Shown here: positions 2,482 to 57,802 of the stretch, one piece after another
Position numbering within the stretch: the first letter of the stretch is position 1
How the letters are laid out: every line of letters starts with the position of its first letter
NCBI GenBank assembly: GCA_964532285.1
Contig: CAZHHB010000005.1
Span: 1-60,060 of the forward strand
DNA: 60,060 nucleotides
Source of the DNA: an uncultured Candidatus Saccharibacteria bacterium
GTDB taxonomy: Bacteria > Patescibacteriota > Minisyncoccia > Phycocordibacterales > PALSA-1337
Direction: 5' to 3'
Notes under the pieces: generated by a model
Seen by the model: only the letters and a program-made list of their open reading frames with translations
Told to the model about the DNA's origin: nothing
Database searches by the model: none
Program-made: the position numbers and the translations under genes

Positions 2482-2633
2482 AGTAAGTCGGGCAAGGTGT
2501 TATTTCTCGCGACGGCGAGTATGCGATGGGTGCGTCAGTCTATGCTTCTCTGAGGCAGACTATGGCTCGCCAACCAATAACTCGGAAGACTAACACGCAG
2601 CTGCGCGAGAAATAACACCTTGCCCGACTTACT
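2482..2633. repeat. Perfect 30-bp inverted repeat flanking a 92-nt structured spacer (nested palindrome A)
   Basis: Left arm agtaagtcgggcaaggtgttatttctcgcg (2482-2511) is the exact reverse complement of 2604-2633. It lies between convergent genes. Confidence 0.9.
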
Positions 2634-3882: not shown

Positions 3883-4048
3883 GTCCGGTAAATAAGTTCT
3901 CGAGACAGCCGAGGACATGTCTGAGCGCAGTAGAAATTGCTTGGTAAAAGGCGAATGTCGTTGGAATTATTCATAATTCCTGAGCCTTTTACCTAGCAAT
4001 TTCACGGAGCGAGTACCGCAGGCTGGCGAGAGGATTTATTTACCGGAC
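3883..4048. repeat. Nested palindrome element B: 114-nt core (3909-4022) inside the locus-specific IR gtccggtaaataa/ttatttaccggac
   Basis: The core is the reverse complement of 54283-54396 with a single mismatch. It has an internal 20-bp stem and an 8-bp stem. Confidence 0.9.
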
Positions 4049-20571: not shown

Positions 20572-20640
20572 AAGTTCGGTGAATGTGTGTCCCCCTCGGA
20601 ACGGAACATGTTCCTCGGAAGACACACATTCACCGAACTT
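20572..20640. repeat. Perfect 20-bp inverted repeat around a 29-nt palindromic centre (nested palindrome G)
   Basis: aagttcggtgaatgtgtgtc (20572-20591) pairs with gacacacattcaccgaactt (20621-20640). The centre contains ggaacatgttcc and two cctcgg motifs. Confidence 0.9.
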
Positions 20641-31429: not shown

Positions 31430-32284
31430 ATGAAAAATATCCTGAAGAAAACCCTGCCACCTTTTATTTGGAATAATGCCAGAGATACTTATTATGGCTT
31501 TTCTCATATCCTATGTAGGATTGGTCCGCAGACGAAAACTCGCAATTATTGTGGATTCAGATTGTATTACAATTGCGGCAATTCCATAATTGACAGACTG
31601 AAGTTTGAACCCGTCTTCGAAAAAGAGATGTGTGAGATGATCGTCTTTGATTTGAATAAAAGTAAGACACCAAAGATGTTAGATATCGGTGCGAATATCG
31701 GTTTTATCAGCCTTTATGTTGTTTCAGAAGTTTCTGCAATCAAGATTTATGCTTTTGAGCCGGGGTTGAAACAGGCGGGGTATTTTAAGAAAACTATAGA
31801 AGCCAATGCCTTGAGCGAGCGTGTGGTCTTGAATACTTTTGCCCTCTCAGATTCAAATGGCACCCAGACCTTCTATAGTCATCCTAGACGCGATATGTCG
31901 AAAGATGGTCTAAAAGATACAGGAAGGGGAGAAAGGACGGTTGTAACAGAGGTAAAGACCATGACGTTGGATTCTTGGTGGAAAGGGGTGGGTATGCCGA
32001 ATATTGATGTTGTGAAGATTGATACAGAGGGGGCGGAGTTATTGATCTTGCGTTGTGCAAAGGAATTCCTGGCGAAAGTGAAACCGATTATTTATCTGGA
32101 GATAGCGCCGAGTAATCTGAAAGCATACCCGTACAAGGTCTCAGATATTTTGAAATATTTAGGCGAGGCTGGTTACAGATTGGTAACGTTGTCAGGTGAA
32201 TTGGTTACAGCAGATAATTTAAATGAATTGTTGGTTGTTAATGAGACTTTCCGTGCCATTTCAGATGGTCAGGTCGCAAAGTGA
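31430..32284 (+). CDS. FkbM-family methyltransferase
   Basis: MLDIGANIGFISLY, AFEP, VVKIDTEGAE. Confidence 0.75.
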   Translation: MKNILKKTLPPFIWNNARDTYYGFSHILCRIGPQTKTRNYCGFRLYYNCGNSIIDRLKFEPVFEKEMCEMIVFDLNKSKTPKMLDIGANIGFISLYVVSEVSAIKIYAFEPGLKQAGYFKKTIEANALSERVVLNTFALSDSNGTQTFYSHPRRDMSKDGLKDTGRGERTVVTEVKTMTLDSWWKGVGMPNIDVVKIDTEGAELLILRCAKEFLAKVKPIIYLEIAPSNLKAYPYKVSDILKYLGEAGYRLVTLSGELVTADNLNELLVVNETFRAISDGQVAK

Positions 32285-32432
32285 TTTTTATGAGACCTGC
32301 GGGACTCGCTATCGTTAAATTGCAAGGTTTTTGTGCTCATGGGCATGTAAGGTTCCGAGCACAAAAACCTAGCAATTTATACTCTGCTCAGACAGGTCCT
32401 CGGTCTCATAAAAATCACCTTGCGACCTGACC
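32267..32432. repeat. Nested palindrome element C: core 32296-32403 inside a 31-bp IR (1 mismatch) that includes the last 5 codons and stop of both flanking genes
   Basis: ggtcaggtcgcaaagtgatttttatgagacc pairs with ggtctcataaaaatcaccttgcgacctgacc. The core termini cctgcgg.actcgct / ctgctcagacaggtcctcgg are shared with elements B and D. Confidence 0.9.
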
Positions 32433-33128
32433 TCTTCGAGTAAAGATAGAATCCTCAAATAGTATTTCACCAGTTTTTGGATGCCTTTTATTTTGCAAAC
32501 CTCCGTGATATTCAAATCCTTTTTCCGTCAAAAAATTGTAAATATTACTGAATAAAGGTTGGTTCTCATACAGCGCACGGAATGAAGTTTCAGCCAAGAC
32601 GATTGAAACATGAGGTAATAGATTTACAGCTCCACGCAAAACTTTCTCTTCATAACCCTGAACATCTAGTTTCAATAGTATATTCCTCTTAATATTTGAG
32701 GCTTGAAGTATGGAATCTAGAGTCTTCACAATAATTTTTTCGTCTGTTGAATCTTTTGTAAAAGGGAAGGCATCTTCCAAAAGCTCCGTGTTGGATAACA
32801 TGGAAGAGCTGGGTGCGTATGAATTTTTATGGATTACAGAAGTACCGGCAATATCGCCAAGGCCGATATTGTAAGAAGTGAAGTTGCGATCATTCTTCCT
32901 AGAGATATTCAATTTAGCGAAACATTCCTTCATGGGCTCAAAAGAGTAAATATGAGCATCAGGCAAAACGGCACGGATCTCGGAGGCAAATTGCCCGACA
33001 TTGGCCCCAACATCTATGACTGTATTTACCTCATAGTTTTTAAAGAAACCAAAAGGGTTTATCTTGTGGCGATAACGGATGATGTCTACGCCGATCTTTT
33101 GTAGTAATGACTTAATTGTTTTTTTCAT
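32415..33128 (-). CDS. FkbM-family methyltransferase
   Basis: VIDVGANVGQFASE, SFEP, LLKLDVQGYEE. Confidence 0.75.
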   Translation of the reverse strand: MKKTIKSLLQKIGVDIIRYRHKINPFGFFKNYEVNTVIDVGANVGQFASEIRAVLPDAHIYSFEPMKECFAKLNISRKNDRNFTSYNIGLGDIAGTSVIHKNSYAPSSSMLSNTELLEDAFPFTKDSTDEKIIVKTLDSILQASNIKRNILLKLDVQGYEEKVLRGAVNLLPHVSIVLAETSFRALYENQPLFSNIYNFLTEKGFEYHGGLQNKRHPKTGEILFEDSIFTRRGQVAR

Positions 33129-35852: not shown

Positions 35853-36017
35853 GAACGGAAGTATACACCATTGTCTGTATTTGTGAATAATAAAAAGCCC
35901 TATCAAGAATTTGACAGAGTTTGTGTGGTCGTGTTAACCAAATATTTTCGTAGGGTGCAACATCCCATTCCGAACCCACGATCGGCCCTGCTCGTACAAC
36001 GGAACACCTCGCAGGGC

Positions 36018-36143
36018 CGTCTCTTCTCGCGCTGGTGTCATCAATATGCGGAGTTAATCTTCAACAGCGCTCCGAAAGGGGTGTCGTCATGGGATGTTAC
36101 ACCCTACTGCAATCATTATATACTCGCTCAGACAGGTCCTCGG
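36018..36143. repeat. Partial or degenerate copy of the nested-palindrome core (element E)
   Basis: cctactgcaatcattatatactcgctcagacaggtcctcgg resembles the element C 3' end cctagcaatttatactctgctcagacaggtcctcgg. No flanking IR was found. Confidence 0.6.
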
Positions 36144-36178
36144 CTGATTCGAAGACATGTTTGCCAAGTCCTACCTAC

Positions 36179-37084
36179 TTAATTGTTTTTGTCTTCAATC
36201 AACCTCCGCACAAAATCAGGGTGATCAGTACACATAGCACCTGGTTTCAAAGCGACAATCTCTGCGAGGCGGGCGTTCAATCTCTCGCGAGGTGAGCCGT
36301 CTTCGTGGAGATGGTCGGGTTGTACGCCAGTTGGCTGGGATGGGGAAGTGGTGTGAAGCTCTGGAGTTACGAGAGCTATACCGATACCGTGATCGCGGAG
36401 TTTTCCGAAGATCTCGGTGTTGAGTAATGTCTTCTCACCATCGTTTTTGTCCTTACGATCCCATTCATCCAACCACGCCCAACTGAAGAGATCCTTGTTT
36501 TCCAACAATTGTTCCATGGTGATGAGTGTACCACCAGCGGCATTGTTGAAACGCTCGATGTCATAAGGATGCGAGACAGAAGCGGCCAGACGGATACCCG
36601 GAACTTTGTCCACGAGATACTTGGCGGAGGGGATGGTGGCATCGAAGACGATGAGTTTGTCCCATGCACTGAACTCTTCCAGTGTCCCAGCCAATATCTC
36701 CAAACCTTCCGGAGTTTGATTGGCGGACTTGAGGTGCAAGGCAGAGATACTCCTCGGCGCGCCCTTCTCCGCAATTAATTCCAAGAGATGGGGGATAGAG
36801 GTTAGGTGTTGACCGTCGAAGTCTGTAGCGACGAGTCGGGCCAGTGGAACTTCGTTGATCTTCCTTTTGTCCCGACCTCCGGTCAGGCGTTCGAGACTAG
36901 AATCATGGATAGCGGTCATTTGACCATCAGCGGTGACACGCATGTCGAATTCCAAACCATACCCGCGCGCAAGTTGGTCGGTGAAAGCCTCCAGAGAGCT
37001 TTCTTTGAAGTAGCGGGGTCGATCAGGATCTAGGCCACGATGGGTGATGATTCGGGTGGTAGTGTTTCGCTGATTATCCTTCAT
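36179..37084 (-). CDS. Glycerophosphodiester phosphodiesterase (GDPD family)
   Basis: ITHRGLD...ESSLEAF...GLEFDMRVTADGQMTAIHD. Start at ATG 37084, with TATAAT (minus strand, 37096-37091) 6 nt upstream. Confidence 0.8.
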   Translation of the reverse strand: MKDNQRNTTTRIITHRGLDPDRPRYFKESSLEAFTDQLARGYGLEFDMRVTADGQMTAIHDSSLERLTGGRDKRKINEVPLARLVATDFDGQHLTSIPHLLELIAEKGAPRSISALHLKSANQTPEGLEILAGTLEEFSAWDKLIVFDATIPSAKYLVDKVPGIRLAASVSHPYDIERFNNAAGGTLITMEQLLENKDLFSWAWLDEWDRKDKNDGEKTLLNTEIFGKLRDHGIGIALVTPELHTTSPSQPTGVQPDHLHEDGSPRERLNARLAEIVALKPGAMCTDHPDFVRRLIEDKNN

Positions 37085-37099
37085 ATGTACATTATAGTA

Positions 37100-37141
37100 C
37101 CACAAGGTCCGACCTAGGAGTTCCTAGGTCGGACCTTGTGG
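37100..37141. repeat. 42-nt near-perfect palindrome made of two short palindromic units
   Basis: ccacaaggtccgacctagga-gt-tcctaggtcggaccttgtgg (20-bp arms). It lies between the divergent GDPD and IMPase-family promoters. Confidence 0.9.
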
Positions 37142-37143
37142 TA

Positions 37144-37172
37144 TTGACTACCTCTTACTATTAGTATATAAT
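37144..37172 (+). promoter_or_regulatory. Canonical sigma70-type promoter
   Basis: TTGACT, 17 nt, TATAAT. It sits 63 nt upstream of ATG 37235. Confidence 0.55.
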
Positions 37173-37234
37173 CTTTGACAGCTAAATAGGGCTTTTTGAA
37201 AGCTGAAAACAACGAAAACAAGGCTGGTAAGTGA

Positions 37235-38179
37235 TTGCCAGCCACAACCATAAGGAACAAAGTGAAAAACAGTCCAATATTGGATGTAATATTAGAAGCT
37301 GTGAAAGCTTCGATGACAGTGGTTCGTGGCAGGCAGGGTGGTTTTGGTTTTGATGTTGAGATAAAGAGGGATAAGTCTCTTCTAACCACGACCGACAAGG
37401 CAAGTGAAAAGATTGCCATGGAGATTCTTCTCAATAATCTTCCTCAGGACTTGGGTATCCATGCAGAGGAGAGGGGAAAAATCAGGATGGGTAATAAGAG
37501 GATCCTCTTCGATCCGATTGATGGGACAAAACCATTTATTGTTGGGGCGACCACATCAACTGTTATCGCTGCACTCTACGATGAAATTCTGAATAAAATC
37601 ACTATCTGTGTCGTCGGCGATCCAGCGACGGGTCGTATCTGGAGTGCGGAAACAGAAAAAGGGGTGACTCTGAGAGAACATGATTTCTCTGACGACAACG
37701 GAGAGTACACGAATGCGATCTCATCCTTTTGCCGTGTCACCCCGCCGGCAACTCTTGGTGAAACTGGTCGAACGGTCTTCTGCGACTTCTATCCGGATTT
37801 CAAACGGAAGGGTCGCACGGTCCTCTCCAACTTCGAGATCGCCATGTTGTTCGAAGGACTGTTCGGTATCTATGGCGTCACCATGTTGGGCTCCAACGGT
37901 GCCCATCACGCTCTGGTTGCGAATGGTGCGCAGGGTATCGCCGGTGCGATCACGACGGCGATCGGCGGACCATGGGATGTGGCGCCGGCGCTCCTGGTCA
38001 CGGAGGCGGGTGGTTTCGCCAGAGCATTCACCGTCCTGCCGGACGGCGAACTCGCAGATCGTGATCCGTTGGATCCGGAGAGTTTCGATATCCTGATCAC
38101 CGCTGTTACGGAGACAGATCTCACGGCGATGGTCTCGATACTCTTCAAGGCCAAGTCCGCCTGCGAAGGTGAAAAATGA
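37235..38179 (+). CDS. Inositol monophosphatase / FBPase-family phosphatase
   Basis: ILFDPIDGTKPF, GGPWDVAPALLVTEAGG. An alternative GTG start at 37262 follows aagga. Confidence 0.75.
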   Translation: MPATTIRNKVKNSPILDVILEAVKASMTVVRGRQGGFGFDVEIKRDKSLLTTTDKASEKIAMEILLNNLPQDLGIHAEERGKIRMGNKRILFDPIDGTKPFIVGATTSTVIAALYDEILNKITICVVGDPATGRIWSAETEKGVTLREHDFSDDNGEYTNAISSFCRVTPPATLGETGRTVFCDFYPDFKRKGRTVLSNFEIAMLFEGLFGIYGVTMLGSNGAHHALVANGAQGIAGAITTAIGGPWDVAPALLVTEAGGFARAFTVLPDGELADRDPLDPESFDILITAVTETDLTAMVSILFKAKSACEGEK

Positions 38180-38212
38180 GTGCGAGGTGACTAAAAATAT
38201 TTAAAAAACAAC

Positions 38213-38242
38213 CCCCACGATGCAAGCATCGTGGGGATTTTT
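38213..38242. terminator. Bidirectional rho-independent terminator
   Basis: An 11-bp stem (ccccacgatgc-aa-gcatcgtgggg) preceded by an A-run and followed by attttt, between convergent genes. Confidence 0.7.
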
Positions 38243-38287
38243 GTAAGAGTTCTAACTAATTGCGTTATCTCAGTGGTGTCAAACCAC

Positions 38288-39577
38288 CTATTCATCGGGC
38301 TGGAGTTCTCTCCCAAGCTGTTCATAGAAGGGGTTTCTGATATTGTCTGCAGAGAAACTCCCACCATTTTCGCTCAAATACCCCATATGATATTTCCTCT
38401 GCCAGACTGAATGGGCAAAGGCAATATACGCACCGCGGAGAAAAGTTGGGATGAACGGGGCGAGTTCTTCGGAATCAAACTGACTGACGAAGTTTTGCCC
38501 GCTTCCATTCATCTCAGTTCCGACGATCACCGGCCAGCCTATTTTATTCGCGGCCGAGATTATCTCCCAGAGATTTTTCAGCTTTTGATCTTTGATCCCT
38601 GGTGTGAAGTTGCGATCGGGAATAATATTGATGGCTGATATTCCATTTCCAACAGCCATCTTTATCAAAACCGAAACATCTCGTTCTCCATCACTCATGC
38701 CGTCAAGCCAAGCCAAAGTCGGTATACCTCCACACTCCAGGATGAATTCATTCATCTCTCGGAGAGTGGGGAACATGCTCTTGCTGATCTTTGGATGTTT
38801 TACCACGCCGCCACGCTTCATTGTCTTGGTTCTTATGAGTGCCTGAAGTGCGGAATCTAAAAAAGGACAGCTACCAAGTTTGTTATACCAAAAATCCTGG
38901 CGTTCACCTTCTTTCGGAAAGACATCTTCTGCTTTGCGCGCATACGCTTGGCAGACATGTCGTTCCGTGACATTGCCTCGTGGTGTAAGGGCGACGACAT
39001 CTTTTTCGTAGTCCAATTTGACCGGATAGAGATATCTATTCACTCGTTCAAGCATTGCTAGGATGCGTTCCTTGGCGAGCTTTTGGGCTCGATCTAGGAA
39101 TGGGTGACTAATCCCTCTGGTAATTCCCAAACCTATGTGATACATGATCCCTGGTTCACCGGGGGAATTAATTACCTTGTCCTTGAATTCTGGGACGAAG
39201 ACGCGTGATTCAATACTGGCGCAGGCCTTGAGACCGATTAGTCTCGCGGCCTCCAGGAATTCGTTGACACCATGTAGGGCATCAAAGTCCACTATACCAG
39301 CAACTGCCAGTCCTTCTTTGCGTGCTTTCCATGCGAAGCCTGTCGGATAATATCCGAAGGTATTGTAGGAATAATTGGTGTGAGCATGCAGATTGACTCG
39401 GCTACCTGATGATGTCATCTCAATGCCCCCCTTTTTGATCAGACGGCAGAGGGCGAGCAGTGCCTTGCGGCGTACAGTAGGATCTTTATCGTCCAGCTCT
39501 CTTTCGAGAGATATGATACGAGAGGTGATATCCCGGCTATCTTTTTTCAGCGTTTTTTTCATAGAATTAGTTGTCAA
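38288..39577 (-). CDS. PHP-domain metal-dependent phosphoesterase
   Basis: RVNLHAHTNYSYN (PHP motif I) plus downstream His/Asp-containing motifs. Confidence 0.55.
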   Translation of the reverse strand: MTTNSMKKTLKKDSRDITSRIISLERELDDKDPTVRRKALLALCRLIKKGGIEMTSSGSRVNLHAHTNYSYNTFGYYPTGFAWKARKEGLAVAGIVDFDALHGVNEFLEAARLIGLKACASIESRVFVPEFKDKVINSPGEPGIMYHIGLGITRGISHPFLDRAQKLAKERILAMLERVNRYLYPVKLDYEKDVVALTPRGNVTERHVCQAYARKAEDVFPKEGERQDFWYNKLGSCPFLDSALQALIRTKTMKRGGVVKHPKISKSMFPTLREMNEFILECGGIPTLAWLDGMSDGERDVSVLIKMAVGNGISAINIIPDRNFTPGIKDQKLKNLWEIISAANKIGWPVIVGTEMNGSGQNFVSQFDSEELAPFIPTFLRGAYIAFAHSVWQRKYHMGYLSENGGSFSADNIRNPFYEQLGRELQPDE

Positions 39578-39757
39578 AGGTTGATGTTTTCTGAACTAGT
39601 AGTACCATTTTTTGCAGTTTATATCGAGTTGACAATATGGTGTATGATGTGTCAGTATGTTTGGCAGTAAACAGTAAACAGGAGGTGTGTACTTAGGAGT
39701 ATATGCTGTGATTGAAAAAACAATAGCCCTCAACAAGGGTAGACAGAAAGATTTTTT

Positions 39758-40462
39758 ATGAATGAAGACATAAAGCCTGGACAACAGGTCGTAGGTGAAA
39801 ATCCGGTTCTAAAAAAGATAATGACGATCCGGGCTGGTGGTGAGAGGATGTTTGAGTCTGGCGTCATGAAACTTTTCGAGGGTTTCCCCGAAAGTCTCAA
39901 GTATCGGGCGAATGTTTCGCTCAAGATGAAAATATTCCTCTCGCCCATCATCTGGGAAGTTTACAAGACAGCGTACCGTCTGGGATTGGTTCCTTTGACG
40001 GCGGAACTGCACTTCCCGTTGCACATGACGCTTCTCGAGGCAAATTGCGACCAGAGCGAGTGGGCGGAGAAAACCGCGATGTGGCATGAATTGGAGAAAG
40101 TGTCCTTTGTTTGTTTGCCTCAAACCGATGCGGATTTGCGTTTCTCGCACCTGGTGATCAATAATTCCAACGATGTCCTGCTCATGTCCGATCAGATCCC
40201 GTCTTGCATAGTCAATTTCCGCAAGAAGATTGCGGAAGTATATGAACGCCATGGATTGCAGGTTCTACCTTTGGATGACAGCATGCATATGAGCATTCAG
40301 CGGTTGCCGGAGGCGAGCAACAAGGAAGTCGGCCAGCTATTCAATCTGAAAGAATATTACCAGGGGATCAGGGCTTTGGAGAAGATTCAGCCTCAGATCG
40401 TCAGGGTAATTGGATTATATTGTGGCCCTGCCATGAGCTTACTTACCCAAAAGCCGAGCTAA
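39758..40462 (+). CDS. Putative 2H phosphoesterase (LigT/cyclic phosphodiesterase-like)
   Basis: Two H-x-[ST]-x motifs, HFPLHMTLLE and DSMHMSIQRL, about 100 aa apart. Confidence 0.4.
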   Translation: MNEDIKPGQQVVGENPVLKKIMTIRAGGERMFESGVMKLFEGFPESLKYRANVSLKMKIFLSPIIWEVYKTAYRLGLVPLTAELHFPLHMTLLEANCDQSEWAEKTAMWHELEKVSFVCLPQTDADLRFSHLVINNSNDVLLMSDQIPSCIVNFRKKIAEVYERHGLQVLPLDDSMHMSIQRLPEASNKEVGQLFNLKEYYQGIRALEKIQPQIVRVIGLYCGPAMSLLTQKPS

Positions 40463-49388: not shown

Positions 49389-51959
49389 ATGGCATTTTTC
49401 AGCAAAATATTCAGTTCATCCAAGACGAGCAATCCAAAGAAGTTTGAGCCGATTGTGGTGGAGATAAATAAACTGGAAAACAAAATCCAGGCTCTTTCTG
49501 ATGCAGAACTTCGAGCGAAGACAGCAGAGTTTAAGAGTAAACTGAGTACTTCTACCTCTAGGTCGGACCTAGAGGTGTTGATGAATGAAATCCTCCCTGA
49601 AGCTTTCGCTGTAGTTCGCGAAGCCTCTCGCCGTACTCTCGGTCAGCGTCATTTTGATGTTCAACTTATCGGGGGGATGATCTTGAATTCAGGATCAATC
49701 GCCGAGATGAGGACTGGTGAAGGTAAAACTTTGGTGGCAACACTGCCAGCTTATTTGAATGCACTTACCGGTAATGGTGTACATATTGTCACGGTCAACG
49801 ATTATCTATCACGACGCGATGCTGTGTGGATGGGACAGATCTACGATTTTCTCGGACTTACAGTCGGAGTGATCAACCATGAATCATCTTTTATATATGA
49901 TGCGGAACATAAAAGTAAAGAAACAGTAGAAAGTGATGGTGAAGACAAACTAGACAAAGAACGCGATGATCTGGGTGCCTTCAAAGTCGTTCATGAATTC
50001 TTAAGACCAGTTACTAGACACGAAGCCTACATGGCCGATATCACTTACGGCACGAACAATGAATTCGGTTTTGATTACCTCCGAGACAATCTAGAGTATA
50101 GTCCAGACCGTCTGCGTCAGAGGGAATTCAACTATGCCATAGTAGACGAGATAGACTCTATTTTGATCGATGAAGCGCGTACGCCACTCATCATCTCCGC
50201 GCCGACTCGTGACGCCGAAAGTACTTACAAACAGTTTGCTGCGCTCGTAGGTTCATTCAAAGAAATAGAAGACTATATAGTAGAAGAAAAACACAAAAGT
50301 ATATCTCTGACGCAGGATGGTATAACTAAAGCTGAAAAGGCTCTGGGCATAGAGAATATCTATACAGACAAGGGCATCAAGTCGGTTCATCATCTCGAGA
50401 CGGCCATCAAAGCCCGAGCCTTGTATCACAAAGACAAAGAATATGTAGTAAAAGAAAATCAGATTGTAATAGTAGATGAATTCACTGGGAGATTGCAGCC
50501 TGGCCGTAGATGGTCAGATGGTCTGCATCAAGCCATTGAAGCCAAAGAAGGTGTGAGTATTCAGCAAGAATCTAGAACTTATGCTTCCATTACATTCCAA
50601 AACTTCTTCAGAATGTACCCGAAGCTTTCCGGTATGACTGGTACGGCCGTGACTTCATCTGAGGAATTCCACAAAGTCTATGGCCTGGAAGTTTATAGTG
50701 TACCGACCAATGTTCCAACGGTGAGGAAAGATCAAAATGATCAGATATTCAGAACAGAGGTTGGTAAATTCAAAGCTATTGCAAGAAAGGTCAAAGAATT
50801 GCACAGCAAAGGTCAGCCGGTTCTGATCGGCACGGTCTCTATTGAGAGGAATGAAGTCTTGTCACAATTCTTGAAAGCAGAAGGTATCCCGCATGAGATA
50901 TTAAATGCAAAAAATCACGAGAGAGAAGGAGAGATCATCGCTCAGGCTGGTAGGGTTGGTGCGGTTACTATCGCCACCAACATGGCGGGTCGCGGTGTGG
51001 ATATCAAACTTGGCGGCAATCCAAATACTCCAGAATCACACGATGAAGTCAATAAAGCTGGGGGACTTTTTGTCCTCGGCACTGAACGCCATGAAGCTCG
51101 TCGTATAGACGACCAACTACGAGGTCGTTCTGGCCGTCAGGGTGATCCGGGTGAGACACAGTTCTTTGTCTCTCTAGAAGATACTTTGATGCGTGTTTTT
51201 GCTTCGGATACTTTGAAGTCAATGATGGTTAGGTTGAATGTGCCAGAAGATGAAGCTATAGAGCATAAGTTTATTTCCAAAGCTTTGGAATCTGCACAAG
51301 AGAAGATTGAAGGTTTCAACTTCGATTCCCGCAAACATGTTTTGGAATTTGATGATGTCATAAATCATCAGCGCGGTAGTATTTACGGTAGACGCAGAAA
51401 ACTTTTGCTTGGGACGGTAGAGGATGTGGAAGAGGAGTTCAGGATTATCATAGAAGCTGCCGCTTTTGAAACCGATATATTAAAGGTCGTAGAAAATAAA
51501 ATAAATGAATTTGGTCGTGAGTCATTCCTCAATGCTGTTAGAGTGATTCTCCTGCAGACAATTGATATGTATTGGGTGGAACATCTGGAGGTTATGGATT
51601 ATACGCGTTCCAGCGTCAATCTGCGCGCTTACGGTCAACGAGATCCTTTGGTTGAATACAAAAAGGAGGGGCTGAGGCTTTTCAAAGAGATGCAGGGTGT
51701 TATGAGTGCGCAGGTGATCAAAATCATTCCACATATAGTCCCGATGGTAAACGGGGAACCTGTTTCCAAGAAGATTGCAGGTGACGCTGCTGATTTGAGG
51801 GAAGTTCATGAAAATGCTCAGATTATCGGTGCCGGTGATGGTTCCGCGAATAATTCAAAGTCAGTCAGTGATTCCAAGTCCGTTGGTCGCAACGATCCAT
51901 GTTGGTGTGGTAGTGGGAAGAAGTATAAGAAGTGTCATGGGCAGTCAAAGATCGTGTAA
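49389..51959 (+). CDS. secA: Preprotein translocase ATPase SecA
   Basis: AEMRTGEGKTLVATLPAYLNAL, IVDEIDSILIDEARTPLIIS, C-terminal CWCGSGKKYKKCHG. Confidence 0.95.
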   Translation: MAFFSKIFSSSKTSNPKKFEPIVVEINKLENKIQALSDAELRAKTAEFKSKLSTSTSRSDLEVLMNEILPEAFAVVREASRRTLGQRHFDVQLIGGMILNSGSIAEMRTGEGKTLVATLPAYLNALTGNGVHIVTVNDYLSRRDAVWMGQIYDFLGLTVGVINHESSFIYDAEHKSKETVESDGEDKLDKERDDLGAFKVVHEFLRPVTRHEAYMADITYGTNNEFGFDYLRDNLEYSPDRLRQREFNYAIVDEIDSILIDEARTPLIISAPTRDAESTYKQFAALVGSFKEIEDYIVEEKHKSISLTQDGITKAEKALGIENIYTDKGIKSVHHLETAIKARALYHKDKEYVVKENQIVIVDEFTGRLQPGRRWSDGLHQAIEAKEGVSIQQESRTYASITFQNFFRMYPKLSGMTGTAVTSSEEFHKVYGLEVYSVPTNVPTVRKDQNDQIFRTEVGKFKAIARKVKELHSKGQPVLIGTVSIERNEVLSQFLKAEGIPHEILNAKNHEREGEIIAQAGRVGAVTIATNMAGRGVDIKLGGNPNTPESHDEVNKAGGLFVLGTERHEARRIDDQLRGRSGRQGDPGETQFFVSLEDTLMRVFASDTLKSMMVRLNVPEDEAIEHKFISKALESAQEKIEGFNFDSRKHVLEFDDVINHQRGSIYGRRRKLLLGTVEDVEEEFRIIIEAAAFETDILKVVENKINEFGRESFLNAVRVILLQTIDMYWVEHLEVMDYTRSSVNLRAYGQRDPLVEYKKEGLRLFKEMQGVMSAQVIKIIPHIVPMVNGEPVSKKIAGDAADLREVHENAQIIGAGDGSANNSKSVSDSKSVGRNDPCWCGSGKKYKKCHGQSKIV
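49554..49576. repeat. 23-nt perfect palindrome (short palindromic unit) inside secA
   Basis: acctctaggtc-g-gacctagaggt, translated as TSRSDLEV. Confidence 0.9.
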
Positions 51960-52113
51960 CCCCTCACATTGTTTCCTCACTCACTCGCACTCCACTCATC
52001 ACATATCGGAATTTTCACAAATGATGTCTTCCAAGGCTTCAGCCATCATTTGGAAAATTCAACGATATGTTCTTCGCGGATTATGCTCGCTCGTGGATAA
52101 ACAATGTGAGGGG
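51960..52113. repeat. Nested palindrome element F: 15-bp outer IR and 17-bp inner hairpin
   Basis: Outer IR cccctcacattgttt / aaacaatgtgagggg; inner hairpin gaattttcacaaatgatg / catcatttggaaaattc. The 5' motif cctcactcactcgcactcc resembles cctgcggtactcgctcc of element D. Confidence 0.85.
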
Positions 52114-52163
52114 GTACACGATCTCAGATTCACAAAACTCTGTAGATGTGGTAGAGTAAACTT

Positions 52164-53277: not shown

Positions 53278-54249
53278 ATGGCTTTTATTGACGAAATACA
53301 ATTCCATGCCAAAGCTGGCAACGGTGGGAAAGGCGTAGTGCGCTGGCGACATGAGCGCGGCAAAGAATTTGCCGGTGCTGCGGGTGGCAATGGCGGCAAG
53401 GGCGGCGATGTCTATGTCCGCGCCGTGCGAGATATAAATATTCTTTCACGCCACAAAGCCGTGAAGATCTTTTCTGCCAGTAATGGGCGGGACGGGCAAA
53501 ATCTGAGCATGCAGGGAGGAAGCGGTGAAGATCGCACGATAGATTTGCCAATAGGTTCTGTGGTTACAAATCTGAATTCAAAAAGAGTTGTGGAGCTCAT
53601 AGAAGACGGACAGGTGTCAAAGATTTTACACGGAGGCCGTGGCGGTCTGGGTAACGAATATTTCAAAGCCTCCACCAATGTTCGTCCAGAACAATCTACT
53701 CCAGGAATGGATGGGGAAGAAGCAGGCTTCGAAGTTGAACTAGATCTGATCGCTGATGCAGGACTGATAGGTTTGCCGAATGCCGGCAAGTCTAGTTTAT
53801 TGAATGCACTTACGAATGCAGAAGCCAAAGTTGGTAATTACGCCTTTACGACTCTGGATCCTAACCTCGGAGCTTTGGCTGGCGGATACATCCTGGCTGA
53901 TCTGCCGGGGTTGATAGATGGTGCGGCAGAAGGCAAGGGACTCGGTTACAAATTCCTCCGCCATGTGAAGCGCACAAAGATGCTCCTGCATTTAGTTTCT
54001 CTGGAAAATGAAGATGTCGAAGCGGCTTATACATCCGTGCGTCATGAATTGGAAAAATATGGCAATGGTTTGGGTGAGAAGAAAGAAACTATTATCTTGA
54101 CGAAAACTGACATGGTGACATCTGCAATTGTAAAGAAAGCACGAAAAGTTCTAGGTAAACATAATAAAGATATTTTGGAAGTTACTATACTAGATGATTC
54201 TTCAGTGAAGGTATTGGGGAAAGAATTGGTTGGGAAGTTAAGGGGGTAG
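53278..54249 (+). CDS. obg: GTPase Obg/CgtA
   Basis: AKAGNGGKGVVRWRHE, GGNGGKGGDVY, GLPNAGKSSLLNA, DLPGLIDGA. Confidence 0.9.
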   Translation: MAFIDEIQFHAKAGNGGKGVVRWRHERGKEFAGAAGGNGGKGGDVYVRAVRDINILSRHKAVKIFSASNGRDGQNLSMQGGSGEDRTIDLPIGSVVTNLNSKRVVELIEDGQVSKILHGGRGGLGNEYFKASTNVRPEQSTPGMDGEEAGFEVELDLIADAGLIGLPNAGKSSLLNALTNAEAKVGNYAFTTLDPNLGALAGGYILADLPGLIDGAAEGKGLGYKFLRHVKRTKMLLHLVSLENEDVEAAYTSVRHELEKYGNGLGEKKETIILTKTDMVTSAIVKKARKVLGKHNKDILEVTILDDSSVKVLGKELVGKLRG

Positions 54250-54253
54250 GTGA

Positions 54254-54424
54254 AGAGCCCAACAACTAACTCGCAAAGCTCACCTGCGGTACTCGCTCCG
54301 TGAAATTGCTAGGTAAAAGGCTCAGGAATTATGAATAATTCCAACGACATTCGCCTTTTACCAAGCAATTTCTACTGCGCTCAAACATGTCCTCGGTGAG
54401 CCTTGCGATTAGTTGTTGGGCTCT
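54254..54424. repeat. Nested palindrome element D: 114-nt core (54283-54396) inside a ~31-bp locus-specific IR
   Basis: The core matches the reverse complement of 3909-4022 at 113/114 positions. Arms are agagcccaacaactaactcgcaaagctcacc / ggtgagccttgcgattagttgttgggctct. Confidence 0.9.
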
Positions 54425-54429
54425 AGAGA

Positions 54430-55884
54430 TTACCCCAACTTCTCTATGAGGAGTTTCTTCACTACTTCTGGGTTGGCGGAGCCTTTTGTAGCTTTCATAG
54501 CTTGACCAATAAGATACTGAAGAGAGGTGGTCTTGCCGGATTTGTAGTCGTTTACCACCGAGGAATTATCAGAGATGATCTTCTCAATGATTGGTAGAAT
54601 GTCCGCGGAATCACTCTTTTGAATAAGTCCGTGCTTTTTGGCAAGTTCATTTGGTGGAGTATCTTTCTCGGTTATTAGTAATGTCAGGAGGTCTTTGGCT
54701 CCGCGAGATGATACTGTGCCGTCATGAACCATTGTTATGAGTTCAGCGAAAGATTCGGGCGAGATATCTTTCAATGACGCTCCGATTTCTGACATTGTGG
54801 TGTTCGGTTTTTTCTTCAACATTCCCAGGTAATCACTAAGAAGATAGTTGATCGTCAATTTTATTTTCTTGGTGTCTGCAGGATATGATGAAATTATTGA
54901 TTCGAAGTATTCAGCGATTTTGATATTCTCAATAAATACAGCTACCTCTTTGTCGGTCATACCGAAATCTTTTTTGTAGCGAGCTTCCTTGTTCCATGGA
55001 AGTTCCGGAATTTCTTTTTTTAATGTAGCGACGGAAAATTCTTTTATCTCCGACAATTTTAATTTTGGAATATCTGGATCAGGAAAATACCTGTAGTCGT
55101 GAGAACTTTCTTTGCTGCGCTGAGAATATGTTTCTCCTTTTGTATCATCCCAGCCGCGAGTTTCTTGGGCGACTGTATGACCATCATCGAGTAGGGAAGA
55201 CTGGCGAGTAACTTCATATTCGATAGCGCGTTCAACAGAACGAAATGAATTTAAATTTTTCACTTCAGTTTTTGTGCCGAATTTTCCGGCGGCAGTATCT
55301 TTCTCTGAAGCTATAGAAATATTTGCTTCAATGCGCATCTCACCCTTTTCCATATTGGCCAAACCGGCTCCGAGATAACGGAGGAGGAGCTGTAGTGATG
55401 AAGCGAACTTCACAGCCGAGGATGCATCATGTATGACAGGCTTCGTGACTAATTCCATGAGTGGGACACCGGAACGATTGAAGTTGACCAGACTCTTGTG
55501 ATGCGTGTCATGAGTGGACTGAGCGGTGTCTTCTTCTAGGTGGATACGCTCGATCTCTACGTCTGATAATTTTCCACCGGATACGAGAGGGTACTTGTAC
55601 TGACTGATTTGATAGCCCTTCGGTATGTCTGGATAGAAATAATTCTTACGATCCCATTCTGTGAAGTCGGCGAGAGTTCCACCTACAGCGACACCGACTT
55701 TGAGTACATGCTTGATAGCTTCCATATTCAGAACAGGTAGTGTCCCAGGATGTCCCAAACAGATGGGGCAGATATTTACGTTCGGTTTTTCTTCGTCGGG
55801 ATTATTTCTGCAGGCACAAAACATTTTTGACGTAGTCTTCAATTCAGCGTGGATCTCCAAACCAATAGTGGGTATGTAACTCAT
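54430..55884 (-). CDS. gatB: Asp/Glu-tRNA amidotransferase subunit B
   Basis: MSYIPTIGLEIHAELKT, CPICLGHPGTLP, NRSGVPLMELV, C-terminal GatB/YqeY domain. Confidence 0.9.
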   Translation of the reverse strand: MSYIPTIGLEIHAELKTTSKMFCACRNNPDEEKPNVNICPICLGHPGTLPVLNMEAIKHVLKVGVAVGGTLADFTEWDRKNYFYPDIPKGYQISQYKYPLVSGGKLSDVEIERIHLEEDTAQSTHDTHHKSLVNFNRSGVPLMELVTKPVIHDASSAVKFASSLQLLLRYLGAGLANMEKGEMRIEANISIASEKDTAAGKFGTKTEVKNLNSFRSVERAIEYEVTRQSSLLDDGHTVAQETRGWDDTKGETYSQRSKESSHDYRYFPDPDIPKLKLSEIKEFSVATLKKEIPELPWNKEARYKKDFGMTDKEVAVFIENIKIAEYFESIISSYPADTKKIKLTINYLLSDYLGMLKKKPNTTMSEIGASLKDISPESFAELITMVHDGTVSSRGAKDLLTLLITEKDTPPNELAKKHGLIQKSDSADILPIIEKIISDNSSVVNDYKSGKTTSLQYLIGQAMKATKGSANPEVVKKLLIEKLG

Positions 55885-56533: not shown

Positions 56534-57802
56534 ATGAAAGATATCTTTATTTTTGAAGGTAAAAAATACATCTCGGCTAGGCGAGCATCCGAAATCTCGG
56601 ACTATTCTTCTGATTACATTGGCCAACTTTGCCGCTCTGGAAAGCTTGATTGTCGCATGGAGGGAAGATCGTGGTTTGTAACAGAAGAGTCTCTCAATCT
56701 ACACAAGACCAATGTTTTGGAAGATGAAGTTTACAGGAACCGTATCGAAAATCTTCGTGGGAAGAAACCGAAAGACACAACAGAAGAGAAAGTTAAAATT
56801 TCCGAAAATAAAAAATCCGAGTCTGAATCAGTAGAACAGACTACTCCATTCATCTCTACAAAACGGGCATCCGAAATCTCGAACTATTCTCCAGATTACA
56901 TCGGTCAACTTTGTCGTTCCGAAAAGCTTGATTGTCGTATGGTGGGACGGTCATGGTTTGTAACAGAAGAATCTCTCAATCTATACAAGGTCAATGTTTT
57001 GCACGATGAAGTTTACAGGAACCGCATCGAAAATCTTCGCGGGAAAAAATCAAAAGATATAACAGGAGAGGAAATCGGCGCTCAGGTTCCCGATCCCCAA
57101 CCTTCTCTCTCGGAACAATTCATCTCATCTGAAATGAGATCTTTCTTGGCAAGCAAGATGACATATGAACACGCTGACGATCCTCTGCTTCCAGCATTGA
57201 ATAAATATGCAGACAAGACAACAGAGGGGGCTTTGTCTGATTCGACAGAGATTGTGGGGGGGGCGATGATTCCGATTAAAACTCCCTACACCAATCTTGC
57301 TCGCTCCATCATTTTGAAAAGAGCATTGAGACCCGCTGTGATGATAGCCATGTTCCTGGTTGTCTTCGGCGGAACGACGATTGTATTCAATAAGATCAAA
57401 AATAGTAGCAATATATCGGTGGCCAAAATCTCCGAACTCAATGCGACTATTTTAGACGCTTTCAAGTCAACCAGTTCTTTTTTGCAGAGAGAGTATGATG
57501 GCTTGCTGGCTCTATTCAAATACAGAAGTGAGTTGGCTTTGAACACAACCGATGATGGCGCAGAAATATCGGACGTCGAAACCCCTACAAATAATCCTTC
57601 TCAAGGAATAGCGATAGTGCCTTCGACGGGACTTGCCGCGGATGATGAGGCGGCAAAACAGAAGATTCAAGATTCTTTCTCTGATCAGATAGAAGTTCAT
57701 CCTGACAATAGCGGTACATCAGGTATCATCACCCCTGTCTTCCGCACCACGAAGGGTAATGATTTCGTATACGTTCTCGTTCCGATCAATGAGCAAAAAT
57801 AA
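56534..57802 (+). CDS. Membrane-anchored protein with two tandem excisionase-like HTH modules
   Basis: 422 aa. The module ISxxRASEISxYSxDYIGQLCRSxKLDCRMxGRSWFVTEESLNL occurs twice, followed by a TM helix (AVMIAMFLVVFGGTTIVF) and a C-terminal extracytoplasmic part. Confidence 0.6.
   Translation: MKDIFIFEGKKYISARRASEISDYSSDYIGQLCRSGKLDCRMEGRSWFVTEESLNLHKTNVLEDEVYRNRIENLRGKKPKDTTEEKVKISENKKSESESVEQTTPFISTKRASEISNYSPDYIGQLCRSEKLDCRMVGRSWFVTEESLNLYKVNVLHDEVYRNRIENLRGKKSKDITGEEIGAQVPDPQPSLSEQFISSEMRSFLASKMTYEHADDPLLPALNKYADKTTEGALSDSTEIVGGAMIPIKTPYTNLARSIILKRALRPAVMIAMFLVVFGGTTIVFNKIKNSSNISVAKISELNATILDAFKSTSSFLQREYDGLLALFKYRSELALNTTDDGAEISDVETPTNNPSQGIAIVPSTGLAADDEAAKQKIQDSFSDQIEVHPDNSGTSGIITPVFRTTKGNDFVYVLVPINEQK
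56569..57070 (+). repeat. Intragenic tandem duplication: two ~220-bp units offset by 282 bp (94 codons)
   Basis: 56569-56788 and 56851-57070 align base for base with scattered substitutions. Confidence 0.9.

What the first reader, a model, noticed from the sequence alone, without database searches (positions are those of the whole stretch)
54254..54424. Removing the core regenerates palindromes centred on CCGG: palindrome-centre insertion or palindrome growth by template switching
Define the inserted unit as 5'-TGCGG...CCTC-3'. The flanks then rejoin as palindromes:
- gctcaCC|GGtgagc here;
- atgagaCC|GGtctcat at 32296/32403;
- cagCC|GGctg at the 3.9-kb copy.

At all three loci the element therefore sits exactly at the dyad of a long palindrome of 13-31 bp that is unique to that locus. 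These arms are far longer than ordinary terminator stems.

Two readings are possible. The element may target palindrome centres, as IS1397/ISKpn1 do with REP loops. Alternatively the hairpin core may provoke intramolecular template switching that copies the adjacent flank in inverted orientation, so the palindrome grows outward.

Separately, the two 114-nt twins are inverted repeats and could mediate inversion of the ~50-kb segment between them.
Basis: partly seen in the sequence, partly recalled or inferred. Interest (0 to 1): 0.72.

Follow-up and report, generated by a model that had tools for sequence, protein, structure and literature searches.

The report
Conserved long-hairpin repeat element, locus-specific arms
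The feature is one copy of a non-coding long-hairpin element whose two-stranded internal loop is nearly identical in bacteria from at least six phyla and matches no catalogued RNA family, so its "palindrome arms" are the element's own outer helix and not a pre-existing insertion target.

Summary
Three full copies (3883-4048, 32267-32432, 54254-54424) have a 108-114-nt core between 28-31-nt inverted arms that differ at each locus. Two cores match at 113 of 114 bases.

The CCGG centre is an artefact of where the boundary was drawn. CC and GG belong to a conserved bipartite motif. On the folded strand this reads 5'-CC GAGGAC N UGU Y UGA GC ... GC GAGU N CC R CA GG-3'.

I found the same motif pair in Bacillota, Actinomycetota, Patescibacteria, Pseudomonadota, Myxococcota and Planctomycetota. 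It always sits between two variable helices. In some copies the order is circularly permuted, and the "arm" helix is then a capped hairpin. Rfam 15 has no match.

In Lachnospiraceae the arms travel with the element. An apparently empty site there is an internal deletion. The window holds a similar relic at 20572-20640, so IS1397-like targeting of palindrome centres is not supported.

In this window the arms run up to or over the neighbouring stop codons. Fold-back template switching is my preferred origin for them, but it is unproven. The rival is old copies plus gene conversion of the cores. The function of the conserved loop is unknown.

The parts
54254..54282 (.). Copy C, outer-helix arm on the obg side. 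It starts 4 nt after the obg stop codon (54247-54249).
54283..54396 (-). Copy C core. It holds the conserved strand CCTGCGGTACTCGC (54283-54296), the inner hairpin stem B (54297-54378) and the conserved strand GCTCAAACATGTCCTCGG (54379-54396). The folded, selected strand is the minus strand.
54397..54424 (.). Copy C, outer-helix arm on the gatB side. It ends 5 nt before the gatB stop codon (54430-54432, minus strand).
32267..32295 (.). Copy B, left arm. It contains the last 5 codons and the stop of the FkbM gene 31430-32284 (GQVAK*).
   Evidence: (I4)
32296..32403 (-). Copy B core, 108 nt and about 68% identical to C. Both conserved strands are intact and stem B has diverged.
   Evidence: (60.2 bits)
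32404..32432 (.). Copy B, right arm. It contains the last 5 codons and the stop of the FkbM gene 32415-33128 on the minus strand (GQVAR*).
   Evidence: (I4)
3883..3908 (.). Copy A, arm on the lysW-like side. It is non-coding and carries a mirror copy of GTCCGGTAA.
   Evidence: (I16)
3909..4022 (+). Copy A core. It matches C at 113 of 114 positions and lies in inverted orientation. The folded strand is the plus strand.
   Evidence: (I1)
4023..4048 (.). Copy A, arm on the Mur-ligase side. It contains the last two codons and the stop of gene 4040-5494 on the minus strand.
   Evidence: (I16)
20572..20640 (-). Relic copy. Arms of about 21 nt surround CC CTCGGAAC GG AACATGTTCCTCGG. Remnants of both conserved strands are present, but stem B and the tandem-GA region are deleted.
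   Evidence: I7; 27.4 bits, full model
36108..36165 (-). Half copy. It keeps the 3' side of stem B, GCTCAGACAGGTCCTCGG and an arm-like flank. The other half is replaced by an unrelated long hairpin at 35950-36107.
   Evidence: (I2)

Best explanation
**What it is.** The feature is one copy of a family of non-coding long-hairpin repeat elements. Each element has three parts.
- An outer helix. These are the "arms", 28-31 bp in this window.
- A highly conserved asymmetric internal loop.
- An inner hairpin (stem B) of very variable length.

**The conserved loop.** On the folded strand it reads 5'-CC GAGGAC N UGU Y UGA GC-[stem B]-GC GAGU N CC R CA GG-3'. My structural reading is inferred from sequence and energy folding. 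The CC/GG pairs close the outer helix. A short helix GGAC/GU(N)CC follows, with one variable bulged base. Tandem G.A/A.G pairs then abut stem B across a 6-nt bulge, which gives a kink-turn-like layout.

**Shown.**
- The CC/GG pairs and the arms are integral to the element. They are not a pre-existing target.
- One particular strand is under selection to fold, as RNA or as single-stranded DNA.
- Copies can be lost by internal deletion that leaves the arms behind.

**Inferred, about 0.35-0.4.** In this compact Patescibacteria genome the locus-specific arms were made locally. During replication the nascent strand folds back on the core hairpin and copies the adjacent flank in inverted orientation. 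This is intramolecular template switching, the process that perfects quasi-palindromes. The arms extend until they meet the coding ends of the neighbours.

**Core identity.** The near-identity of cores A and C reflects recent copying of the core alone. This happened either by transposition or by gene conversion anchored on the conserved strands.

**Function.** What the loop does is not known. I favour a recognition module for a trans-acting protein.
For: **Distribution.**
- The same motif pair occurs in Lachnospiraceae, Clostridiales and Eubacteriales, Coriobacteriia, Patescibacteria, Thiotrichales and other Pseudomonadota, Myxococcota and Planctomycetia.
- The metagenome scan added 21 loci holding 23 copies.
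- Permuted topology was seen in 8 loci.
- Minimal forms have the two strands only 3-4 nt apart (L001, L036).
- No Rfam 15 family matches.

**Structure.**
- The helices covary. 66% of cells are paired against 54% in shuffles, and the covariation score is 0.30 against 0.14, reached by 0 of 500 shuffles.
- The first pair outside CC/GG is paired in 28 of 31 sequences with four pair types.
- Strand asymmetry of wobble-type mismatches is 26 against 7, p = 0.0013.
- The minimum-energy fold predicts the GGAC/GU.CC helix.

**Arms belong to the element.**
- Arms are homologous between Lachnospiraceae loci.
- L178 keeps the outer-arm remnants after losing 130 nt.
- The window relic at 20572-20640 keeps its arms and the stumps of both conserved strands.

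**Arms made locally in the window.**
- Arms are unrelated between A, B and C.
- Arms abut or overlap stop codons.
- The right FkbM tail GQVAR resembles the homologues' native tails GLKISK, GLKNASVN and GLYKTD. The left gene's homologues end earlier.
- Only one long empty palindrome exists in 60 kb.

**Precedent for the mechanism.**
- Template switching is established at quasi-palindromes (PMC7202029, PMC3820800).
- It can create perfect hairpins in one step (PMC10710096).
Against: - No direct evidence of template switching exists. No relative close enough to show a pre-insertion site is available. The best Obg homologue is 78% identical, and its obg-gatB junction holds another gene.
- In Lachnospiraceae the arms are carried with the element, so local regeneration is not a general property of the family.
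- The FkbM-tail argument rests on one conserved glycine and on tail length.
- Arm A has 5 mismatches in 28 nt while its core differs from C at 1 of 114 positions. This fits an old hairpin whose core was recently overwritten by gene conversion better than it fits fresh arm synthesis.
- Whether the folded form is RNA or single-stranded DNA is undecided. G.T is also the most stable DNA mismatch.
- No partner protein and no transcription data are available.
- The kink-turn reading departs from the canonical 3-nt bulge.
- My database patterns forced most conserved positions, so the degree of conservation is partly imposed by the search.
Confidence: 0.5

Rival explanations
1. The copies are old and arrived with their own arms, and the cores evolve in concert. 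Each copy arrived as a whole hairpin, as in Lachnospiraceae. The arms have since diverged beyond recognition through compensatory substitutions or intra-hairpin correction. Cores A and C are identical because one overwrote the other by gene conversion anchored in the conserved strands. The neighbouring genes simply read into the arms until they meet a stop codon.
For: - Arms and outer flanks are homologous among the Lachnospiraceae copies L016, L025, L114 and L179, with compensatory changes.
- Hain-H41 copies differ at arm positions in a compensated way.
- Arm A is far more decayed (5 of 28) than core A is diverged from core C (1 of 114).
- B and C share TCGCAA[A/G]G, including the same mismatch.
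Against: - The exactly conserved stretches at the core ends are short, 7-15 nt between B and C. That is short for RecA-dependent conversion.
- Complete turnover of 30-bp arms while keeping 97% complementarity needs very many compensated changes.
- Arms that end exactly at the neighbours' stop codons in three loci, and in other hairpin types in the window, look locally shaped.
- The right FkbM tail looks native.
Confidence: 0.3
2. Palindrome-centre insertion, the first reader's reading 1. A mobile 108-114-nt core integrates at the dyad (CCGG) of pre-existing long palindromic terminators, as IS1397 and ISKpn1 do in REP loops.
For: - Cores A and C are 99% identical within unrelated arms.
- All three sites lie between convergent genes, where a bidirectional terminator hairpin is expected.
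- L178 retains a weak hairpin with about 31-nt arms around the missing segment.
- REP palindromes are known targets of insertion sequences (PMC1525189).
Against: - CC/GG is conserved in every copy in six phyla, including permuted copies where it closes an internal hairpin.
- There is no transposase and no direct target duplication.
- The 60-kb window holds only one empty palindrome with arms of 22 nt, and none centred on CCGG.
- The arms are not GC-rich and have no U-tract.
- At the Lachnospiraceae locus examined (UvrA-YfbR-HPF) a normal terminator sits beside the element.
- The relic at 20572-20640 shows that palindromes which look empty can be deletion products.
Confidence: 0.1
3. A host-beneficial structured RNA, not mainly a selfish or mobile element. 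Candidates are a 3'-end stabiliser, a processing signal, a protein-binding kink-turn module or a new self-cleaving ribozyme. The copies are kept by selection at many intergenic sites. This overlaps with the best explanation on anatomy and differs on why copies exist.
For: - About 24 loop nucleotides are conserved across phyla, and circular permutation is typical of ribozymes and other functional RNA motifs.
- One strand is selected for folding.
- The helices covary.
- In one Eubacteriales genome copies flank housekeeping genes such as gapA.
Against: - There is no consistent gene association or orientation. Convergent, divergent and tandem contexts all occur.
- The core orientation differs at the same locus between strains, L114 against L179.
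- Strains encoding an identical neighbouring protein differ by presence or absence of the element.
- No Rfam ribozyme or RNA family matches.
- No expression data are available.
Confidence: 0.25
4. An assembly or amplification artefact, such as an inverted chimera around an adapter-like sequence.
For: Inverted duplications of flanks are a known artefact of multiple-displacement amplification (general knowledge).
Against: - The same motif occurs in dozens of independent assemblies, including an isolate genome (Lachnospiraceae bacterium P6B14, L025).
- The arms carry in-frame gene ends.
- Copies have diverged in an evolutionary pattern with compensatory changes.
Confidence: 0.01

Closest known systems
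REP, BIME and REPIN elements with their RAYT (Y1 HUH) transposases
   Same: - Short, non-coding, multi-copy intergenic palindromes that fold as single strands.
- REPINs are long hairpins made of two inverted REPs.
- They are lost and gained between strains.
- They often sit between convergent genes (PMC3333891, PMC3116915).
   Different: - In REP and REPIN the arms are the conserved, repeated part and the loop varies. Here the internal loop is conserved and the arms vary.
- REP sequences are species-specific. This loop is nearly identical across phyla.
- No RAYT gene was identified. This was not tested beyond ten flanking proteins.
IS1397, ISKpn1 and IS110-family insertion into REP loops
   Same: A shared core sits at the centre of a palindrome (PMC1525189, PMC12288879).
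   Different: - Those are 1.2-1.5-kb elements that encode a transposase and target a repeated, conserved palindrome family.
- Here the core is 35-114 nt and non-coding, and the palindromes are unique to each locus.
- The junction bases belong to the element.
Quasi-palindrome template-switch mutagenesis and one-step hairpin creation
   Same: An existing hairpin primes intramolecular copying, which makes or extends perfect inverted repeats (PMC7202029, PMC3820800, PMC10710096). This is the proposed origin of the arms.
   Different: - Known events correct or extend a few to a few tens of bases at single loci.
- A repeat family that regularly acquires 30-bp arms in this way has not, to my knowledge, been described.
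- It is not shown here.
MITEs, ERIC and RU elements, and Rickettsia palindromic elements
   Same: Small, non-autonomous, hairpin-forming repeats in intergenic regions. They sometimes run into coding ends (PMC3184786, PMC2759123).
   Different: - MITEs have terminal inverted repeats and direct target duplications, and they are lineage-specific.
- Here the flanks are inverted, not direct, and the conserved part is an internal loop shared across phyla.
Kink-turn and hammerhead domain 2 (tandem sheared G.A pairs next to a helix); circularly permuted ribozymes
   Same: - The arrangement UGA-[helix]-GA allows tandem G.A/A.G pairs with a C-G pair on the other side of a bulge.
- The motif occurs with either helix open, as in hammerhead and twister topological types.
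   Different: - The bulge is 6 nt, not 3.
- The hammerhead CUGANGA...GAAA core is absent.
- No Rfam ribozyme model matches.
- Nothing here tests catalysis or protein binding.

Membership tests
IS1397/ISKpn1-type REP-loop-targeting insertion sequences | The element encodes its own transposase. | tested here: not met
   The core is 108-114 nt here and as short as 35 nt elsewhere. It has no transposase-sized ORF.
IS1397/ISKpn1-type REP-loop-targeting insertion sequences | The target is a pre-existing, repeated palindrome family that is found empty elsewhere in the genome. | tested here: not met
   Arms are unique at each locus. Only one long empty palindrome exists in 60 kb, and it is not centred on CCGG. 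The junction CC/GG belongs to the conserved motif.
MITE | Terminal inverted repeats together with a direct target-site duplication. | tested here: not met
   The flanks are inverted copies, not direct repeats. The ends of the core are only loosely symmetric.
REP/REPIN | The arms (REP) are conserved between copies and the loop or spacer varies. | tested here: not met
   The pattern in the window is the opposite. Arms are conserved only among related Lachnospiraceae copies.
REP/REPIN | A RAYT (Y1 transposase) gene is present in the genome. | not tested
   Only 10 window proteins were scanned against Pfam, and none was a transposase. The rest of the genome is not available.
Any Rfam 15 family, including hammerhead, hairpin, twister, pistol, hatchet, HEARO and known repeat-like motifs | A covariance-model match at or near the family's gathering score. 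| tested here: not met
   No hits at gathering score or at E <= 1 on the element in the window, or at the elements in 8 loci from other phyla.
Intrinsic (Rho-independent) terminator | A short GC-rich stem followed by a U-tract. | tested here: not met
   Arms are 28-31 bp with ordinary composition and no T-run on either strand. At the Lachnospiraceae locus examined (UvrA-YfbR-HPF) a canonical terminator lies next to the element.
Kink-turn | A Watson-Crick stem, a 3-nt bulge, tandem sheared G.A/A.G pairs, and a C-G pair at the -1b/-1n position. | tested here: inconclusive
   The sequence allows the GA/GA tandem and the C-G at -1, but the bulge is 6 nt. No structural or binding data exist.
Invertible DNA switch (inverton) | A segment flanked by inverted repeats is found in both orientations within a population, driven by a site-specific invertase with conserved repeat sequences. 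| tested here: inconclusive
   The core lies in opposite orientation at the same locus in L114 and L179. However, the arms are locus-specific, no invertase was identified, and no read-level data exist.

The most novel reading that the evidence does not exclude
The conserved two-strand loop defines a previously uncatalogued class of structured nucleic acid shared by at least six bacterial phyla. It could be a kink-turn-like protein-binding module or a new ribozyme-like motif. The element that carries it spreads without its own transposase and builds its own long outer helix by fold-back copying of whatever flank it lands next to.
Probability: 0.25. Interest if true: 0.85.

Novelty: new variant of a known kind. 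Interest (0 to 1): 0.68.

Why it matters
If the conserved loop is a functional RNA or single-stranded DNA module, it is an undescribed, widely distributed motif. About 24 nearly invariant nucleotides occur in two topologies across six phyla, so it is worth biochemical study.

If the arms really arise by fold-back synthesis, this would be a repeat family that makes its own palindromes. That bears on three questions.
- How long inverted repeats originate in compact genomes.
- How gene 3' ends get rewritten. Two FkbM genes here share an arm-encoded tail.
- How sites that look like empty palindromes should be interpreted.

There is also a practical point for annotation. These elements account for most of the intergenic DNA between several convergent gene pairs in this Patescibacteria contig.

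Tried and rejected
- **Rfam.** I ran a gathering-threshold scan and E-value scans of the window, of the element alone and of eight loci from other phyla. Nothing matched. A resemblance of nearby sequence to 5S rRNA got no support.
- **Viral contigs.** The standard topology gave no hits. The 34 "permuted" hits were coding false positives that lack the rest of the motif.
- **Orthologous empty-site test for the window.** The closest Obg homologues are only 78% identical. Their obg-gatB junction holds an extra gene and has neither element nor palindrome, so the test is uninformative.
- **Gene-context and orientation bias.** None was found. My ORF calls were crude, especially in GC-rich contigs.
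- **Other long hairpins in the window.** The hairpins at 2482-2633, 13318-13440, 35950-36107 and 51949-52124 are not detected by the covariance model and have no motif within 3 mismatches. I treat them as other families.
- **Literature.** Searches by sequence string and by topic found no description of this motif. One preprint could not be opened.
- **Search for further copies.** A covariance-model search of 60 held loci found no copies beyond those already matched by pattern.
- **Translation signal.** I considered a Shine-Dalgarno plus start-codon reading of GAGGAC-NUG. I rejected it because the spacing is 1-2 nt and stem B is not conserved.

Full report
**Observation**

- Copy C spans 54254-54424, with its core at 54283-54396.
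- Copy B spans 32267-32432, with its core at 32296-32403.
- Copy A spans 3883-4048, with its core at 3909-4022 in inverted orientation.

Cores A and C match at 113 of 114 positions. B matches C at about 68%. Each core is bounded CC|TGCGGnACTCGC ... GCTCArACAnGTCCTC|GG.

The flanking inverted arms are 31 nt at 97% complementarity (B), 28 nt at 82% (A), and about 29 nt with one mismatch and one bulge (C). The folds I ran (both strands of C, one strand each of B and A) are far more stable than shuffled sequence, with z from -8.7 to -16. The arms of the three loci are unrelated. The only hint of similarity is an 8-mer shared by B and C.

All three copies lie between convergent genes, confirmed by Pfam:
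- lysW-like and Mur ligase (A);
- two FkbM methyltransferases that are 25% identical (B);
- Obg and GatB (C).

The organism is a member of the Patescibacteria (Paceibacteria or Parcubacteria type), judged from the names given to the Obg homologues.

**The core ends are a motif conserved across phyla**

I scanned one genome per species with GCTCANACANGTCCTCGG. Most hits were chance matches in coding sequence. About 25 loci, however, also carried CCTG[C/T]GGnACTC within 120 nt.

The carriers, by record title, are:
- Lachnospiraceae, including the isolate P6B14, plus Clostridiales and Eubacteriales;
- Coriobacteriia;
- several Patescibacteria;
- Thiotrichales and another Pseudomonadota genome;
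- Polyangia, Myxococcales and Anaeromyxobacteraceae;
- Planctomycetia.

A metagenome scan that required both motifs 60-90 nt apart added 21 loci holding 23 copies.

In every case the two conserved strands lie between two helices of unrelated sequence. The distance between the strands ranges from 3 nt (L001, L036) to 86 nt.

In eight loci the order is circularly permuted. The GTCCTCGG end is joined to the CCTGCGG end by a capped hairpin, and the other helix is the long open one. In L005 that capped hairpin is just CC, five loop bases and GG.

The "arms" are one of its two helices. No Rfam 15 family matches the element in the window or in eight loci from other phyla. It is absent from viral contigs.

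**Which strand folds, and how**

I examined the outer helices of 35 non-redundant copies. Mismatches that read A.C on the CCTGCGG...CCTCGG strand outnumber G.T by 26 to 7 (binomial p = 0.0013). These A.C mismatches are G.U or G.T wobbles on the opposite strand. The selected fold is therefore on the reverse complement:

5'-arm-CC GAGGAC N UGU Y UGA GC-[stem B]-GC GAGU N CC R CA GG-arm-3'.

Minimum-energy folds on that strand pair GGAC with GU(N)CC and leave the variable N bulged. The UGA before stem B and the GA after it can form tandem sheared G.A pairs. A C-G pair lies across a 6-nt bulge from them. This is a kink-turn-like layout, inferred and not tested.

I built an engineered alignment of 15 nt of each arm, both conserved strands and the 8 basal nucleotides of each side of stem B.
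- The named structure has 66% paired cells against 54% in shuffles.
- Its covariation score is 0.30 against 0.14, reached by 0 of 500 shuffles.
- It beats all slid registers.
- The first pair outside CC/GG is paired in 28 of 31 sequences with four pair types.

The conserved positions were partly forced by my search patterns, so their invariance is overstated. Wobble asymmetry cannot distinguish RNA from single-stranded DNA.

**Are the arms a pre-existing target?**

For the window this could not be tested directly. The nearest Obg is 78% identical. In those relatives another gene sits between obg and gatB, with no element and no long palindrome.

I therefore used a Lachnospiraceae locus with a graded series of relatives: UvrA, a YfbR-like protein, the intergenic region, HPF and CTP synthase.
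- L114 carries the element.
- L179 (95% protein identity) carries it at the same intergenic region, with the core in the opposite orientation.
- L178 encodes the identical protein to L179 and has identical flanks, but lacks 130 nt.
- L177 (isolate P6B14, 98% protein identity) carries a different long hairpin there, without the motif.
- L180 and L181 lack the element.

The alignment shows that the arms, and at least 20 nt beyond them, are homologous among L179, L114 and two copies at other loci (L016, L025). The differences are compensated, for example TTTTGAT/ATCAAAA against TTTCGGT/ACCGAAA. In that lineage the whole hairpin of at least 175 nt is the repeat unit.

L178 keeps its outermost arm segments, so it is most simply an internal deletion and not a virgin site. 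A normal terminator (AAAAAGGGACGC...GCGTCCCTTT) lies next to the element in most of these strains, so the element is not the terminator there.

The window contains the same kind of product. The covariance model's best hit with filters off is 20579-20633 on the minus strand (27.4 bits). There, arms of about 21 nt enclose CC CTCGGAAC GG AACATGTTCCTCGG. These are the stumps of both conserved strands, with stem B gone.

A census of simple hairpins in the window found only six with arms of at least 11 nt. Only one is a long empty palindrome (37098-37143), and it is not centred on CCGG.

Together these results argue against IS1397-like targeting of palindrome centres.

**Where do the window's locus-specific arms come from?**

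Three facts need explaining.
- Cores A and C are nearly identical but their arms are unrelated.
- The arms reach the neighbouring stop codons. In C they stop 4 nt and 5 nt short. In A the arm includes the Mur ligase's last two codons and stop, with a mirror copy in non-coding DNA on the other side. In B both arms include the last five codons and the stop of the two FkbM genes, which therefore end GQVAK* and GQVAR*.
- The right FkbM gene's closest homologues (58-70% identity) have tails of similar length that mostly start with the same glycine: GLKISK, GLKNASVN, GLYKTD. The left gene's homologues end 0-5 residues after a conserved A-x-P. This suggests, weakly, that the right arm is native sequence and the left arm is its inverted copy.

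The nascent strand folds back on the core hairpin and copies the adjacent flank. This adds an inverted copy on the other side, and selection on the neighbouring genes sets the limit. This is the established quasi-palindrome template-switch process (PMC7202029, PMC3820800), which can create complete hairpins in one event (PMC10710096).

The main rival, at about 0.3, is that the copies are old and came with their own arms, as in Lachnospiraceae. The arms then diverged with compensation, and cores A and C were homogenised by gene conversion. One fact favours this rival. Arm A has 5 mismatches in 28 nt while core A differs from core C at 1 of 114.

The two accounts are not exclusive. Neither is proven.

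**Function**

I found no consistent neighbouring gene and no orientation bias. Convergent, divergent and tandem contexts all occur (with crude ORF calls). In one Eubacteriales genome copies flank gapA on both sides. The core orientation differs between strains at one locus, and presence differs between strains that encode an identical neighbouring protein.

This behaviour is that of a selfish or at least dispensable repeat. Yet about 24 loop nucleotides conserved across phyla, in two topologies, points to a strong constraint. The likeliest source is recognition by a conserved trans-acting factor, or an intrinsic activity of the folded strand. I cannot decide between these.

**The 50-kb inversion idea**

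The twins are 114-nt inverted repeats and could in principle recombine. GC skew has the same sign inside and outside the segment, and cumulative skew rises smoothly across both junctions. Nothing indicates an inverted state. Only read-level data can test it.

**Comparison with known systems, and novelty**

The element behaves like REP/REPIN or MITE-type hairpin repeats (PMC3333891, PMC3116915, PMC3184786), but the pattern is inverted. The loop is conserved and the arms vary. The loop is shared across phyla. It has no direct target duplication, encodes no enzyme, and matches no Rfam family.

I found no description of it in the literature I could search. I rate it a new variant of a known kind, with a real chance that the loop is a new structured-nucleic-acid class.

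**Verdict**

- Palindrome-centre insertion is not supported.
- Palindrome growth is plausible but unproven.
- The most interesting result is the conserved bipartite loop itself.

Noticed in passing
window 20572-20640: A relic of the same element. Arms of about 21 nt surround the stumps of both conserved strands, and the inner hairpin is deleted. It lies between two co-directional genes.
   Followed up: yes
window 35950-36165: A half copy of the element (36108-36165) sits directly against an unrelated long hairpin (35950-36107, 36-nt arms at 78% complementarity). This looks like a nested insertion or a replacement. The hairpin has a 5S-like stretch, CCCATTCCGAAC, but no Rfam support.
   Followed up: partly
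window 2482-2633: Perfect 30-nt inverted arms surround a 92-nt core that is unrelated to the motif. The hairpin fills the gap between convergent MurD-like and PALP-enzyme genes. It shares the architecture but belongs to a different family.
   Followed up: partly
window 13318-13440: A GC-rich hairpin with 30-nt arms at 93% complementarity lies in frame inside a 626-aa VirD4/TraG-like ORF (12008-13888). It sits downstream of the Pfam domains and recalls Rickettsia-type palindromic insertions in genes.
   Followed up: partly
window 51949-52124: Arms of 26 nt at 96% complementarity surround a 124-nt core. The left arm covers the last codons and the stop of SecA.
   Followed up: no
window 4710, 11486, 16956, 23541, 23841, 23862, 37098, 40552, 48938: A short REP-like palindrome family, CCAAGRTCSGAYCTTGG. 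The 46-nt near-perfect palindrome at 37098-37143 is built from it.
   Followed up: no
window 32267-32297 and 54270-54277: The arms of B and C share TCGCAA[A/G]G and carry their single A.C mismatch at the same position within it. This may be residual homology or chance (p about 0.05).
   Followed up: partly
window 56566-57073: Two 226-nt direct repeats, 84% identical and 282 nt apart, lie inside ORF 56534-57802.
   Followed up: no
window 36000-40000: GC content is 0.47-0.50 here against about 0.40 elsewhere. Together with the VirD4/TraG-like gene at 12-14 kb, this may mark acquired DNA.
   Followed up: no
L177 2230-2360 (Lachnospiraceae bacterium P6B14): The same YfbR-HPF intergenic region holds a different long hairpin, without the conserved motif, in the closest relative. 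The site seems to be a hotspot for hairpin elements.
   Followed up: no
L156, L158, L165, L171, L173, L176: A subfamily of the element has an extra symmetric 3x3 TCC/TCC internal loop in the outer helix, 4 bp from the conserved CC/GG.
   Followed up: no
L048 3440-3506 and 4802-4819: In one Eubacteriales genome, permuted copies with conserved long outer stems and covarying capped hairpins flank the gapA gene on both sides. At least 8 copies occur in that assembly.
   Followed up: partly
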